Assembly: GCA_964016885.1 (NCBI GenBank)
Contig: OZ024743.1
Coordinates: 348,626,001-348,690,000 of the forward strand
Origin: Eledone cirrhosa
Lineage: Eukaryota
Length of the DNA stretch: 64,000 nucleotides
Reading direction: 5' to 3'
Numbering within the stretch: the first letter of the stretch is position 1; each line of letters starts with the position of its first letter. The position numbers and the translations under genes were made by a program. The notes below the pieces were generated by a model, which was not told where the DNA came from, searched no databases, and saw nothing but the letters and a program-made list of their open reading frames with translations. This document shows positions 12,713 to 49,700 of this stretch, in pieces.

Positions 12713-13417
12713 ATGAATAAAGTTAGTCCTTCATCAGTGATCTTCCAACCTTCATTGGTATTTCATCGCTTTAAAGACCACATACCTCCGGTTGGTGCTA
12801 GCAACGGCTGAATAAAGTCGTTGGGACACGTAAATAAGGGGAACAGACAAAGATGGTAAGCAACGGAAAGTGAGGAAGAAAGAGTCAAGTCCCAGATTTC
12901 CATTAATATAAGTTCGGTGAAATCGTGAACGAGAGAGAATAAAGACCATCAATCCTGGTCGAAATGTGAGCATGGAAGGAATGTCGCACAGGTCAAAACG
13001 GGAGGAAGAAGGAGTCTAGTCCCTAAATTCGGTGAACATAAGTTTCTGTGAAATTGTAGACAAGAGAGAAAAAGGAACAACCAGCCCTGGTCAAGCGTGC
13101 GCGACAAAAGAATTACGCACAGGTCAAACGGAAGGATGTAGGAGATATAGTAACAGAGAGTGAGTGAGTGAAGGGCTAACAGAGAGAGCGACTGTTAGAG
13201 AGGGTAAAGATACAGAGAAAGAGGAAGCAGTAAGAACGAAATAGACGGGTTTACAGCGGTGGAAAAATATATGTGTGAATATGATAACAAACGTGAGGCG
13301 TGGTTGCAAATGGGTTTACATATGAATAAAGTTAGTCCCTTCATGAAGGTTGGAAGATCACTGATGAAGGACTAACTTTAATCATATGTAACCCATTTGC
13401 AACCACGCAGCACGTTT
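12713..13417 (-). mobile_element. TA-flanked element (family P) with terminal direct repeat and inverted terminal segment; carries the permuted HHR-like motif at 12724-12787
   Basis: atgaataaagttagtcc occurs at 12713 and 13322. 13343-13417 is an inverted copy of the terminal sequence. Homologous to 49331-49700 and 25990-26425. Confidence 0.75.
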
Positions 13418-13470
13418 ATATATATATATATATATATATATATATATATATATATATATATATATATATA

Positions 13471-13670
13471 TAGGAAACCAGTAAGACCCCGACAGCTGAG
13501 CTCAAGCCGTTTTCGACGGCTAATTCTGGGTCCAGAATTAGCCGTCGAAAACGGCTTGAGCTCAGATGTCGGGGTCTTACTGGTTTCCTATTACCCACTC
13601 TACTACCTCAAATATTGAGTACTTTGGTGCGTTTATGGTCCACCTGGTTCCTTACCACATTTCCTTTCGT
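13471..13670 (+). mobile_element. Fold-back mini-element family A (half-HHR palindrome plus tail)
   Basis: Palindrome 13471-13590 containing GAAAacggcttgagctcagatGTCgggg, then a tail with cactc..gagtac. (TA)n on both sides. Confidence 0.85.
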
Positions 13671-13745
13671 TATATATATATATATATATATATATATATA
13701 TATATATATATATTATATATATTCGTTATATATATAGATTCGTTT

Positions 13746-14287
13746 GCAATTATGCAAAACAAGCCTCAATGATATACCCATGTCAGTAGAATGAACACTT
13801 CATTCTTGTTCTTGTGTTGGCATGCGAACAGAACTGCAGAGACTAATGTTTTCTGGGTATAACCCTTCATCAGTACAGATCACTATTCACCTGCCAAAAC
13901 TGTCAGAGCTAGTGAAAATATATGCTATTTTCAAAAATACATAGTGATTGATTGGCCTGATTTGCATATTAGCAGACCGGCTGATCAGTCAGATCTGCAT
14001 ATTAGCAGATCCACTCATCAGTCAGATTTGTATATCAGCAGACAGGCCAGTCAATTTCATGTATACGAGCGATAAATGGCCAGCTTTGCCAAATTCAAAT
14101 AAAAAAGAAAATTTTCGCTCTACATGGGCTGAATACAATAAACTCAGATTACATTTTATTGTATTCAGCCATGTAGAGCGAAATGAAGGGTGATACCCAG
14201 AAAACATTAGTGTCTGCAGTTTCTGTTCGCATGCCACTTCAATGCCGCTGACATGGCTATAAAATTGAGGGTTGTTTTGCATAATTG
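13746..14287. mobile_element. TA-flanked element with ~110-125 bp inverted termini; HHR at 13834-13878 (-)
   Basis: 13746-13870 is inverted relative to 14183-14287. Minus strand: ctgta CTGATGA agggttataccca GAAAacattagtcTC tgcag. The other arm has GAAAaca-ttag-tGTC tgcag. Confidence 0.7.
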
Positions 14288-14396
14288 TATGTATATATAT
14301 ATATAATATATATTATATATATAAAGAAAAAGGGATGAAATCGAAAATGCAACTGAAGTCTTATTTTTTTTTTTAAATATATATATTTATTTGGTT

Positions 14397-14435
14397 CCTT
14401 TACCGGTTTTCGCAGTTCTTCTGCTTTTCAAAAGG
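14397..14435 (-). ncRNA. Minimal type I hammerhead (U3-A8 variant) in the inverted pLTR
   Basis: cctt TTGAAAA gcag aagaa ctgc GAAAa ccgg TA aagg (one extra A relative to the 3' copy). Confidence 0.65.
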
Positions 14436-45980: not shown

Positions 45981-46897
45981 CGCAAATGGAAGTTCAGTAG
46001 AATCGAAGCTCTGGCTAAGGCCATGCTAACGAATGCAATCCGTATGTTTTGGATGATCGAACAGAGGGTTCACTTTCTGAACAGGTTTCCGTTAATACCG
46101 CGGTCGGGTGTGAATTATAGCAGTAAGACTGCTGACGGTCACGTGGTTTTCCCAAAGGGAGGTAACCCACGTTGTGGCGGTCGAAATCCAAATTTTGAAC
46201 AAAGGAATATATTCCTTTCCACAAACCGAATAAACCTCTCGACCAGACGTGATTAAACAAACATAAATAATTAACCAATCAATAGTATTGTCTAATTAAA
46301 TTAATTAATTAATCATTAAGTCTAGGAGTTAATAATACAAAAGGAAGTTCAGTAGAATCGAAGCTCTGACTGCGGCCATGCTAAGGAATGCAATCCGAAA
46401 TGTGCAACTAAGCATTCAATAAGATAGTTTTACCTTAGAATAATAACATTACGTTTAGACAGGTTGACAAATTGAAGACTGAGACCGGTAAGGCAGCCGC
46501 TAAGATCAAAGCAACGAGAAAACCAATTCAGGATAATTTGATAAACCTGGACCATCCCGTCAATATTATGCAATATCCCGGTAGGTTTCTGTGAAAATCC
46601 GAATCAACAAATCCATTGCGGGGTATGCAAGTTATTGGTTATCCCAAAGAGAGGTAACTCCCAGTTTGGCGGTCGAAATTCAAATTTTGAATATATGTAT
46701 TCATATAAATGGGAGTTTAGTAAAATCAAACTTTCGGCTGTGGCCAAGCTGTCGATATACAAAAAGGAATGAGCAGCAAAACACTCGATAAGGCTGTGCC
46801 ACCTTAGAGTAATAACATACGTTAGATCACTTGACAAATTGAAAATTGCGGCAGGCGAGCCTAGCCACATAACACCAAAGCGACGAAAGAACAATCA
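45981..46897. repeat. TA-flanked composite tandem repeat with shuffled sub-units
   Basis: ggaagttcagtagaatcgaagctctg at ~45988, ~46343 and (diverged) ~46711. cccaaag.gaggtaac..ggcggtcgaaat.caaattttgaa at ~46151 and ~46642. ttaga.taataacat.acgtt..ttgacaaattgaa at ~46436 and ~46805. Confidence 0.75.
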
Positions 46898-47120
46898 TAT
46901 ATATATATATGGTTAGGAATTCAGTCTACGCTTTGCTATTTCGTATCCACTGAATTATTTTTTAATAAGTTTCCGGAGTCCTCTTCGGAAAATATATTTA
47001 CTCCATTCCAGAAACTAATTAGTTGGAAGTGATATTTTAGTAAGTAAGTTAATTTTATAATTTTCTTATTTTACGTTTCTCATATATATATATATATATA
47101 TATATATATATATATATATA

Positions 47121-47296
47121 TACTATGATATTAAATAAATGGAATCTATATTTATAAAACCATATTTATTATATTATATATATTCAAGGGTACCAAAGAT
47201 TTTGGTATGCTATCATCAGATAAAATACAAAATGTTTTATAAATATTTGACATGACCAAGGATGATATACGTTAACGGTTCAAGTTATCTGTTCTA
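47121..47296 (-). mobile_element. Mini-element family E (degenerate HHR)
   Basis: Aligns with 5930-6070 and 48432-48550. CTGATGA is retained on the minus strand; GAAA is altered. Confidence 0.75.
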
Positions 47297-48341
47297 CATA
47301 TATATATATATATATATATATATATATATATATATATATATATATATATATATATATATATATATATATATATATATATATATATATATATATATATATA
47401 TATATATATATATATATATATATGTGTGTGTGTGTGTGTGTGTGTGTGTGTGTGTGTGTGTGTGTATATATGTGTGGGTGTATGTACGTATGTATGTATG
47501 TATGTATGTATGTATGTATGTATGTATGTATGTATGTATGTATATTCGCGTCTGTATGCGAATTCGTATAATAGTCTGTAGGATTTGGGGATATAGGCGA
47601 CTAATTACATTAGTAATTTTTAAAAACACAGTGTGTTTAGTAATTCTTATGTCATGATGATTTCATTTAAAGTATATTTAATATTTATACATTTGGTGTA
47701 GCCATGAAATTATATCCTGTCTATAAAACAGAACATCTTCGGAATATGACAGAGAAAAACATCTACATATTTATGTGAAGAATCGTATATCTTACATCTC
47801 AAATTCCAAATTCCTACCAGGTAACCGAGTCCTTAGAGTGTATATAAATGGGATAAACACGCAGGTTAATCGAATTCAAAATATAATATCCCTCCAGGAG
47901 GCGGTTTCTAAAATATCTACAATGGCAACTGTTTTAGTAAGTATTCAAACTAATTATACAAACTTCGCCAAACAACAACCTTTAGACATAACCAGAATTT
48001 CAGTAATATTACCTCGAGTATCAATAACATTAAAAACATTTAAAATTTAGCGTTCATACACAAAAGCCATGTCACACAATTCTTGAACTTTCTGTAATAT
48101 AACACTAACTGCAATTAAACGGATCTATGAAAATTAAGGATTTTACCATTTCACACGCCTCCGAACAACGACTGTTTATACTCGAATTGTATTAGACAAA
48201 CTTTTTCCTAAAGGGGTTAGTCTTATAACACATACGGTATACAGAAACATGGTATATATAAATATATGTATACTATATATATATATATATATATATATAT
48301 ATAAATATATATATATATATATATATATATATATATATATA

Positions 48342-49131
48342 TGCAAAAGTTCTATTTAAAATTGTTGGGATACAACAAGTAAATATTTTTATAACTGATA
48401 TAAAGCACTCGACACATTTTTGGAGTAGATATACGATATTAATAAATGGAAACTATATTTATAAAACCATATTTATTTCATTATACATATTTCAGGGATA
48501 CCACATTAAATGATGGTATGCCTTCATCAGACAAAATACAATATATAACCAAACTGTTATATATTGTATTTTTGTTTACCTTTTACAAACACACACACTC
48601 CCCCCCCCACACACATGTATATATATTTATATATATATATATAATATATATGAAAAAGTTTGTCCTTTTTAAAGGTTTGACGTACCCTTTAAAATACAAC
48701 CATTACTTTTGGAGGCTGTCTGGATAGTGATTTGTTCATATAATAAGTCATAGTGTTAAGCACAATTAGAAAAAGACGGAGAGAAAGAAAGAGAAAAGAA
48801 CAAAGACAGAGAGAGAGAAAGAAAAGAGAAAGAAAACCTGGAGAAATATCGGAGAGAGAGAGAAAAGTCTTTGTTCTTTTCTCTTTCTTTCTCTCCGTCT
48901 TTTTCTAATTGTGCTTAACACTATGACTTATTATATGAACAAATCACTATCCAGACAGCCTCCAAAAGTAATGGTTGTATTTTAAAGGGTACGTCAAACC
49001 TATTTGTAAAACTGTTATATATTGTATTTTGTCTGATGAAGGCATACCATCATTTAATGTGGTATCCCTGAAATATGTATAATGAAATAAATATGGTTTT
49101 ATAAATATAGTTTCCATTTATTAATATCGTA
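48342..49131 (-). mobile_element. Fold-back element family E with HHRs at 48474-48538 (-) and 49025-49089 (+)
   Basis: Arms 48432-48807 / 48867-49131. tattttgt CTGATGA aggcatacca..tggtatccct GAAA tatgta TA atgaaata. Tail at 48342-48431. Confidence 0.88.
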
Positions 49132-49330
49132 TATATATATATATATATATATATATATGTAAATATATACTTACATAGATAGATACATATTTTCCCCCAG
49201 CGTTAAAATAATATATTTCTTCAATGCTTTGTGTTGACTGCTTTATTATTTTTGTTTACCTTTTACAAACACACACACTCCCCCCCCCCCCCCACATGTA
49301 TATATATTTATATATATATATATAATATAT

Positions 49331-49700
49331 ATGAAAAAGTTTGTCCTCATCAGTGGCCTTCCAACCGTCGTAGGCATTTCGTCGCATTAAAGGCCATATA
49401 CCTCAGGTTTGTGCGAGCAACGGGTAAAAAAAGTCGTTGGGATACGTAAATAACGAGGACGCTAGGGTAAACAAACAAAATGGTTTAAGCAACAGAAAGT
49501 GATGAAGAAGAAACAAGTCCCAGATTTCTATGAATATAAATTCGGTGGAATCGTGAACGAGAGAATAAAGACCATCAAACCTGGTTGAAATGTGAGCAAG
49601 GAAGGAATTTCGCACAGGTCTAATGGGAGGAAGAAGGGGTCTGGTCTGCGAATTCGGTAAACATAAGTTCTGTGAAGTCGCAGACGAGAGAGAGAGAAAA
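49331..49700 (-). mobile_element. Family P element (second copy), permuted HHR-like motif at 49343-49403
   Basis: Colinear similarity to 12713-13070 over ~350 bp. Confidence 0.8.

What the first reader, a model, noticed from the sequence alone, without database searches (positions are those of the whole stretch)
12724..49403. Candidate hammerhead with scrambled (pseudoknot-like) topology in three diverged copies
Seen in sense orientation. 49343-49403(-): aGGTAT A tggccttt aatgcgac GAAA tgcct acgacggttg gaaggcca CTGATGA ggac. 12724-12787(-): GGTAT G tggtcttt aaagcgat GAAA tacc aatgaaggttg gaagatca CTGATGA aggac. 26304-26365(+): GGTAT A tgattt ttaatgcgat GAAA tacc catgatcgtttggt aaatca CTGATGA gggac. 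The stem-I-like helix differs in each copy yet keeps pairing (tggcc/ggcca, tggtc/gatca, tgatt/aatca). It sits exactly between UA (UG in one copy) and CUGAUGA, and GAAAU(A/G)CC can pair with GGUAU as stem III. Established: in types I-III the GAAA strand is never inside the stem-I loop. Here it is, and stem II is at most 1 bp. Inference: a pseudoknotted or dimer-assembled hammerhead variant that standard descriptors would miss. I found no downstream GAAA completing a normal fold, even in copies that extend 50-60 nt past CTGATGA.
Basis: partly seen in the sequence, partly recalled or inferred. Interest (0 to 1): 0.85.

Follow-up and report, generated by a model that had tools for sequence, protein, structure and literature searches.

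The report
Knotted hammerhead ribozyme in animal retroelements
About 12,000 places in this animal genome, in short repeats that look like Penelope-type jumping elements, carry the parts of a hammerhead ribozyme in a scrambled order so far reported only from environmental RNA, and the RNA likely folds into a knotted cage, predicted to be bent shut by a kink-turn, that would cut itself.

Summary
The three copies are real. Their block order (cleavage site, GAAA, CUGAnGA) is that of the type-SGC non-circularly permuted hammerhead (Eckert 2023), which was reported only from metatranscriptomes. So the scrambled order is known, but this setting and build are not in any paper my searches found.

Stem II proper is one pair, continued by a helix (Pc) formed with an upstream strand. 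The SGC stem I/II helix is present, but its second strand lies 5' of the cleavage block and joins stem III through a kink-turn-like loop. A further helix (Pa), usually with a hairpin, closes the ends.

Across 18 diverged copies, 25 of 35 pairs change on both sides. One pattern finds 11,990 sites in the genome against 0 for the control. G at the cleavage position occurs in only 34 of 10,164 sites.

The copies sit near the 3' end of 500-810 nt tandem units with Penelope-like insertion features. Cleavage, folding and expression are untested, and no protein-coding partner element was found.

Verdict: a new variant of a known kind.

The parts
26264..26365 (+). Family C copy of the full motif, identical to its family majority over the motif. 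Pa5' 26264-67, hairpin Pb 26268-89, Pc5' 26290-94, NC5' 26295-300, k-turn short strand 26301-03, stem III 5' 26304-08, H17=A 26309 (predicted cut 26309/26310), stem I 5' 26310-16, UAA 26317-19, Pc3' 26320-24, 11.1 26325, GAAA 26326-29, III 3' 26330-33, bulge 26334-36, GA 26337-38, NC3' 26340-46, I 3' 26347-53, CUGAUGA 26354-60, 10.1 26361, Pa3' 26362-65
49342..49444 (-). Family A copy of the full motif. H17=A at 49397 (predicted cut 49397/49396); G10.1-C11.1; private changes weaken one pair each in Pa, Pb and NC
12726..12827 (-). Family B copy of the full motif. G at the cleavage position (12781), so likely inactive; one private mismatch in Pc
12708..13338 (-). Host element, family B: about one unit, ending in (TA)n shortly after the core
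13343..13417 (+). Inverted, 5'-truncated second end of the same insertion (NC3', I3', CUGAUGA, Pa3' and the roughly 45-nt tail), then (TA)n
25974..26432 (+). Host element, family C: 5'-truncated unit with tail, between microsatellites
49326..49711 (-). Host element, family A: 5'-truncated unit, short end in (TA)n

Best explanation
This is the complete conserved core of a hammerhead ribozyme in type-SGC order, carried once per unit by non-coding tandem repeats with Penelope-like ends, and it likely folds within one copy into a closed cage, predicted to be bent by a kink-turn, that would cut the element's RNA after the UH. Steps: (1) Shown by sequence and covariation: helices I, III, NC, Pb, Pc, Pa and the single 10.1-11.1 pair. 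(2) Inferred: Pc stacks on the 10.1-11.1 pair and acts as stem II; NC is the counterpart of the SGC stem I/II helix; stems I, Pc and NC meet in a second three-way junction (linkers 0, 0-1 and 3 nt). The motif is thus type SGC re-opened between positions 10.1 and 10.2, with the old ends joined across a 3-nt strand and the new ends held by Pa (four-way junction with Pb in most families, no Pb in family K). (3) Inferred: the loop between stem III and NC is a kink-turn whose sharp bend brings the end of stem III back up to stem I. (4) Inferred by analogy with retrozymes and Penelope-like elements: transcription through tandem units, cleavage once per unit, unit-length RNAs that circularise and are copied by the reverse transcriptase and GIY-YIG nuclease of an autonomous Penelope-like element into (TA)n.
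For: Block order and 3-nt linker match type SGC (PMC10085705). Pair counts on 18 real copies: 91.9% of 630 cells paired, 25 of 35 pairs with both sides changed, 0 of 500 shuffles as high, slid controls 29-47%. Parsimony on a tree: 34 double pair-keeping, 13 single pair-keeping, 11 breaking, 7 restoring, 2 other; NC alone 14 double and 1 break. The upstream helices were written down (note) before families F, G and K were found, and F, about 50-60% identical to the others, keeps every helix with new letters. Position 7 varies (U 13, C 4, A 1) and position 17 varies (A 14, C 4), with G17 in 34 of 10,164 sites, as a working hammerhead requires. A1n is 18 of 18 and 2n is G 13 or U 5; U at 2n is the known Kt-23 variant (PMC5061560). 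A hammerhead with a 1-bp stem II replaced by a pseudoknot helix is active (PMC11300833). Host: 81 tandem units of about 500-810 nt at 40-45% GC; 3' ends at two distances from the core (63 of 259 at 10-19 nt, 127 of 259 at 50-74 nt); inverted copy beside 141 of 229 5' ends. These match the published Penelope-like features.
Against: No cleavage, structure or folding was measured. G10.1-C11.1, described as highly conserved in Penelope hammerheads (PMC4209133), is present in only 3 of 18 rows in direct register (5 of 18 if family F has a one-base insertion); 7 are A-U, 4 G-U, 1 U-A, 1 unpaired. Pc covaries least (2 double changes, 5 breaks), and in family K it is complete in only one copy. Pa is short, and other upstream pyrimidine tracts could pair with the same strand. 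GAAA, CUGAnGA and the GA of the bulged strand were fixed in my patterns, so their invariance is partly by construction. The parsimony tie-breaks favoured double changes and paired ancestors, and the tree came from the same alignment. Nested folding energies are mostly unremarkable (z +0.5 to -2.5) and the G-U versus A-C strand test is weak (18 vs 12 cells). No coding partner with this motif was found. Published Penelope hammerheads cleave poorly in vitro, and 8 of 9 Xenopus retrozymes did not cleave.
Confidence: 0.72

Rival explanations
1. Same helices and chemistry, but the active form is a strand-swapped dimer between neighbouring tandem units, as for most Penelope hammerheads.
For: Covariation cannot tell pairs within one copy from pairs between copies. 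Units occur in tandem. Penelope and axolotl hammerheads work as dimers.
Against: Those dimers are forced by a short palindromic stem III; here stem III has 5 non-palindromic pairs and all helices close within about 100 nt. Published SGC ribozymes cleave from single-copy transcripts.
Confidence: 0.1
2. The hammerhead SGC core cleaves, but the loop between stem III and NC is an ordinary flexible internal loop rather than a kink-turn, and Pa/Pb are accessory.
For: 2n is U in 5 of 18 rows; G1b and A2b were fixed by the patterns; family K lacks Pb; published SGC ribozymes bridge the same gap with 0-44 unstructured nt.
Against: A1n, which was not in any pattern, is 18 of 18 against 52 of 181 in the null set. 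The loop size (3 + 6 nt) is the same in all parsed families, and F and K show it in alignments. The only common substitution, G2n to U, is a known k-turn variant.
Confidence: 0.1
3. The structure is real but does not cleave usefully; it is kept as a 3'-end signal bound by the partner element's reverse transcriptase, with the hammerhead letters retained for fold alone.
For: It sits close to the element's 3' end; most families lack G10.1-C11.1; hammerhead-less Penelope-like clades proliferate well.
Against: Variation is confined to the positions a catalytic hammerhead tolerates (7 and 17), and no G17 lineage has amplified (34 of 10,164).
Confidence: 0.08

Closest known systems
Type-SGC hammerhead (HRIMA-1 and SGC variant; Eckert et al. 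2023, PMC10085705)
   Same: Block order S-G-C; full core; 3-nt linker from stem I to stem II; a helix whose strand runs straight into the 3' strand of stem I; tolerance of a base between positions 9 and 10.1.
   Different: [quoted passage not shown] Here: genomic DNA, about 100 nt, stem II split after one pair, partner strands moved 5' of the cleavage block, a k-turn-like joint, and extra helices Pa and Pb. Their descriptors match 0 of 196 copies.
Non-LTR retrozymes of animals (PMC7229834; bioRxiv 10.64898/2026.07.22.740005)
   Same: Non-coding tandem units under 45% GC with one hammerhead per unit, many thousands of copies, proposed Penelope dependence.
   Different: Defined by type I hammerheads; here the ribozyme is SGC-ordered. 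Circular RNA not shown here.
Penelope-like element pLTR hammerheads (PMC4209133; features in bioRxiv 2021.04.23.441226)
   Same: Sense orientation near the 3' end; 5' truncation, inverted 5' copy, short tail on one end, (TA)n targets.
   Different: Those are minimal type I motifs with a short palindromic stem III acting as dimers. No linked RT-endonuclease frame was found here.
Pseudoknot (PK) hammerhead (PMC11300833)
   Same: Stem II reduced to the 10.1-11.1 pair, with another helix taking its place.
   Different: There a loop pairs with a stem-loop joined to helix I; here the block order is non-circular and the replacing strand comes from upstream.
Kink-turn (Kt-7 standard, Kt-23 with U at 2n; PMC5061560)
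   Same: Canonical helix, 3-nt bulge, G-A then A-G (or A-U), non-canonical helix.
   Different: Not found described inside a natural hammerhead in search; the fold is untested here.

Membership tests
Hammerhead ribozyme | Core CUGAnGA, GAAA, UH at the three helix junctions | tested here: met
   (family F aligned without a motif filter); H17 in 10,130 sites vs G17 in 34
Hammerhead ribozyme | Helices I and III with compensatory change | tested here: met
   6 of 7 and 3 of 5 pairs change on both sides
Hammerhead ribozyme | Helix II starting with a 10.1-11.1 pair | tested here: met
   15 of 18 rows pair directly, four pair types; one pair only, mostly not G-C
Hammerhead ribozyme | Site-specific self-cleavage after position 17 | not testable with these tools
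   needs in vitro assay
Hammerhead types I-III | Circularly permuted block order with no pseudoknot in the core | tested here: not met
   order is S-G-C; downstream GAAA with >=2 bp stem II in 5 of 196; no Rfam hammerhead match seen
Type-SGC hammerhead | Block order S, G, C | tested here: met
Type-SGC hammerhead | About 3-nt linker from stem I to stem II | tested here: met
   UAA in 18 of 18 (the AA was required by the parser, but family F was unfiltered)
Type-SGC hammerhead | Helix joining the other sides of stems I and II | tested here: met
   NC helix: 99% of cells paired, 5 of 6 pairs changed on both sides; position as in the published alignment
Type-SGC hammerhead | Contiguous stem II (>=3 bp) formed by the strand after CUGAnGA, with the I/II partner strand at the 3' end | tested here: not met
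   0 of 196 match the published descriptors; the partner strands lie upstream. Filed as a variant, not as HRIMA-1
Kink-turn | 3-nt bulge followed by G1b-A1n and A2b-G2n | tested here: met
   standard in 13 of 18, U at 2n in 5 of 18; G1b and A2b were fixed by patterns, A1n was not
Kink-turn | Kinked fold and L7Ae-family binding | not testable with these tools
   needs FRET, gel or binding assay
Non-LTR retrozyme | Non-coding tandem units, low GC, one hammerhead each | tested here: met
   81 units, about 500-810 nt, GC 40-45%; arrays of up to 9
Non-LTR retrozyme | Type I hammerhead | tested here: not met
   SGC order
Non-LTR retrozyme | Unit-length circular RNA | not testable with these tools
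   no RNA run was available to lay
Penelope-like element | 5' truncation, partial tandems, inverted 5' copy, tail on one end, microsatellite target | tested here: met
   against the description
Penelope-like element | RT plus GIY-YIG frame linked to the repeat | tested here: not met
   none contiguous with the motif in the loci held; only about 1.5 kb upstream was held for most loci
Twister ribozyme | P1-UAA-P2, P4 with its loop, and GA-T1-P1 strand | tested here: not met
   considered because two short strings resemble the twister alignment; no P4 forms, the loop-like string is used by Pa/Pb, and no Rfam match

The most novel reading that the evidence does not exclude
A natural hammerhead of new connectivity, closed into a cage by two three-way junctions and a kink-turn, whose cutting and rejoining are switched by a host L7Ae-family protein binding the kink-turn. 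It would be a protein-gated ribozyme in an animal retroelement, and its roughly 20 base pairs holding both products together would let it circularise its own RNA.
Probability: 0.2. Interest if true: 0.93.

Novelty: new variant of a known kind. Interest (0 to 1): 0.8.

Why it matters
Non-circularly permuted hammerheads with covariation support were reported from environmental sequence only. Finding one about 12,000 times in an animal genome, in a family of diverged lineages, puts it in a cell, gives it a plausible job, and supplies natural variants for study.

It breaks an assumption of the published block scheme, that the CUGAnGA block carries its whole stem II strand. Eckert et al. noted that the ends of stem III and of the I/II helix are far apart in the crystal structure and left open how they connect; a kink-turn at that joint is a concrete, testable answer for this variant.

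Surveys that report no hammerhead in some Penelope-like clades, and retrozyme counts, used type I-III or relaxed descriptors that cannot see this order, so such surveys may have missed similar motifs.

Tried and rejected
Expression: the look-up of sequencing runs gave four holders of unknown kind from one study and no RNA holder listed. Laying two of them showed only that contigs cover the unit and include a head-to-tail joint, which DNA tandems also give. No evidence either way.

Other organisms: 0 of 197 metagenome and viral loci from a looser pattern folded as SGC (the metagenome scan read 5 of 64 parts). None of 181 parsed viral and prokaryotic hits exceeded 14 of 22 pairs (the genome scan read 13 of 64 parts). 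No other eukaryote genome could be searched.

Autonomous partner: the window's RT/GIY-YIG element (14822-17370) has its own type I motif, and 30 loci of its family share no sequence with three SGC units. Penelope-type frames near SGC copies in L093 and L102 are separate insertions split off by (TA)n. No shared extension was found among the 34 other 5' ends.

Rejected: HDV-like fold on either strand (by eye, from recalled consensus: no catalytic C at the expected place); twister (see membership test); canonical downstream hammerhead; a G17 sub-lineage; Rfam microRNA matches (all below gathering score, mostly in microsatellites and palindromes).

The 'TATT/TATC' stem III of cluster c39 is an artefact of the negated pattern, not a family trait. 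Family K copies were likewise selected for changes in Pc and stem III.

The search of earlier findings returned nothing.
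Full report
OBSERVATION. A loose descriptor finds exactly these three in the window. They belong to three repeat families with 1701, 106 and 1041 first-look candidates in the 3.0-Gb genome. 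A pattern for the GAAA-to-CUGAnGA half finds 11,990 sites against 0 for the reversed control.

KNOWN ORDER. Eckert et al. 2023 (PMC10085705; I read parts 1-6 of 8 of the main text, supplement parts 1, 5 and 8 of 42, and one supplement search) divide the hammerhead into blocks S (cleavage site), G (GAAA) and C (CUGAnGA). Order S-G-C is their validated non-circular type, 583 sequences, all from metatranscriptomes, cleaving at 0.007-0.19 per minute. The window motif has this order and the same 3-nt linker from stem I to stem II. It does not match their descriptors (0 of 196 distinct copies) because the strand after CUGAnGA does not pair with the strand before GAAA beyond one pair.

FULL ANATOMY. 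Comparing families showed four more helices upstream, written down. From 5' to 3': Pa5', hairpin Pb, Pc5', NC5', three bases (N-G/U-A), stem III 5', H17, stem I 5', UAA, Pc3', 11.1, GAAA, III 3', a 3-base bulge, GA, one base, NC3', stem I 3', CUGAnGA, 10.1, Pa3'. In the published alignment the I/II helix strand runs straight into stem I, and its partner follows stem II after one base. NC and Pc have these same neighbours here, except that Pc5' and NC5' stand before block S. The motif therefore reads as type SGC re-opened between 10.1 and 10.2 (inference).

TESTS OF THE STRUCTURE. Families F, G and K were found afterwards with negated patterns. F, aligned from 31 copies without a motif filter, keeps every helix with new letters, and stem I covaries inside the family. 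On 18 real copies picked to represent the families (pairwise identity 46-100%, mean 72% over the 3' part), 91.9% of 630 cells pair, 25 of 35 pairs change on both sides, 0 of 500 shuffles reach this, and slid partners give 29-47%. The aligner misplaced Pa and Pb of family F and Pa of A and G, which lowers those counts; in structural register Pa has 4-7 pairs in 16 of 18 rows and 3 in two. Parsimony gave 34 double pair-keeping changes, 13 single pair-keeping, 11 breaking, 7 restoring and 2 other (Pa left out, F left out of Pb, tie-breaks favouring double changes). Against a null of 181 stretches (of 209 fetched) with the same core letters and spacing (mean 8.2, maximum 14 of 22 pairs), 201 of 243 own copies reach 18 or more; most low scorers shown are truncated or carry indels. 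Family K (11 old copies, selected against Pc and stem III by the pattern) has a 6-bp Pa and no Pb; its one complete unselected neighbour pairs fully in Pc and III. So Pb is optional, and Pc is the least proven helix.

CATALYTIC SIGNATURE. Position 7 is U, C or A and position 17 is A or C. Genome-wide, G17 occurs in 34 sites against 10,130 with A, C or U; that G17 blocks cleavage is established knowledge, encoded as 'UH' in the published descriptors. The pair 10.1-11.1 occurs as A-U (7), G-U (4), G-C (3) and U-A (1), and is unpaired in direct register in 3. This supports the pair but departs from the usual G-C (PMC4209133, parts 1-2 of 4 read). A hammerhead whose stem II is that single pair plus a substitute helix is active and solved (PMC11300833, part 1 of 6 and one passage).

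KINK-TURN. The loop between stem III and NC fits the definition in PMC5061560 (passages): canonical helix, 3-base bulge, G-A then A-G. A1n is invariant in 18 of 18 though never in a pattern (null 52 of 181); 2n is G in 13 and U in 5, the Kt-23 variant. A 50-degree bend there would return the end of stem III toward stem I, the connection Eckert et al. found hard to reconcile with the crystal structure. This is inference; no 3D model was built.

HOST ELEMENT. 81 tandem units measure about 500-810 nt at 40-45% GC, one motif per unit, in arrays of up to nine. The 3' ends fall into (TA)n at two distances from the core: 63 of 259 at 10-19 nt, 127 at 50-74 nt, 51 elsewhere and 18 with no (TA)n within 150 nt. 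An inverted copy adjoins 141 of 229 5' ends, 54 abut (TA)n and 34 other sequence (both strand views counted, overlapping loci not merged). These are the Penelope-like traits described in bioRxiv 2021.04.23.441226 (passages) and fit the proposal that animal retrozymes are non-autonomous Penelope derivatives (bioRxiv 10.64898/2026.07.22.740005, parts 1-3 of 5; its supplements were not available). No coding partner was found in the loci held.

IN PRINT? 'type-SGC' with 'hammerhead' returns only Eckert 2023. Searches showed no animal or retroelement SGC hammerhead and no natural hammerhead with a kink-turn, judged from listings and from passages of PMC13725137, PMC6765202 and PMC7229834. The library lacks most subscription papers, and unread supplement parts or alignment repositories could hold such sequences.

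VERDICT. Observation confirmed. The structure is well supported by comparison. It works like a type-SGC hammerhead but fails one defining feature of the published family, so it is a new variant. Activity, kink and circles are predicted, not shown.

Noticed in passing
window 14822-17370 (+), 3' region to about 18580: Broken copy of a large Penelope-like family (GIY-YIG PF01541; 775-aa open frames elsewhere, 22,796 first-look candidates). At 18402 it carries what reads as a minimal type I hammerhead with U in place of C3 and A in place of G8 and a palindromic stem III, like the U3-A8 variant in PMC4209133.
   Followed up: partly
window 3424(+), 6027(-), 48530(-), 49033(+); also 39086(-), 41965(+): Ordinary minimal type I hammerheads with short palindromic stem III at the ends of other repeat families, so canonical and SGC-ordered hammerheads coexist in the window.
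   Followed up: partly
window 39489-39995 (+): Fragment with a WCNPPYS motif typical (recalled) of another Penelope-like clade, lying between inverted repeats at 38971-39111 and 41940-42080.
   Followed up: no
window 56443-59185: Nested long palindromes, arms up to 446 nt at 96-100% with zero-length loops; either a fold-back insertion or an assembly feature.
   Followed up: no
window 13480-13590, 20072-20204, 36501-36882: Short perfect hairpin repeats inserted in (TA)n; they give the top sub-threshold Rfam microRNA match.
   Followed up: no
L394/L410 (G000:C3:110377062-110377693): A 95-nt sub-unit of family F, spanning Pc3' to the tail, repeated five times in tandem without the cleavage block.
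   Followed up: no
L364, L378, L423 and others: Many insertions are tiny head-to-head palindromes whose junction falls within the motif just 5' of GAAA, with a tail on one arm only.
   Followed up: no
window 48567-48666 vs 49247-49347: Inverted duplicate (97%) of the last 20 nt of the family A copy plus its flank, part of a larger local inverted duplication.
   Followed up: no
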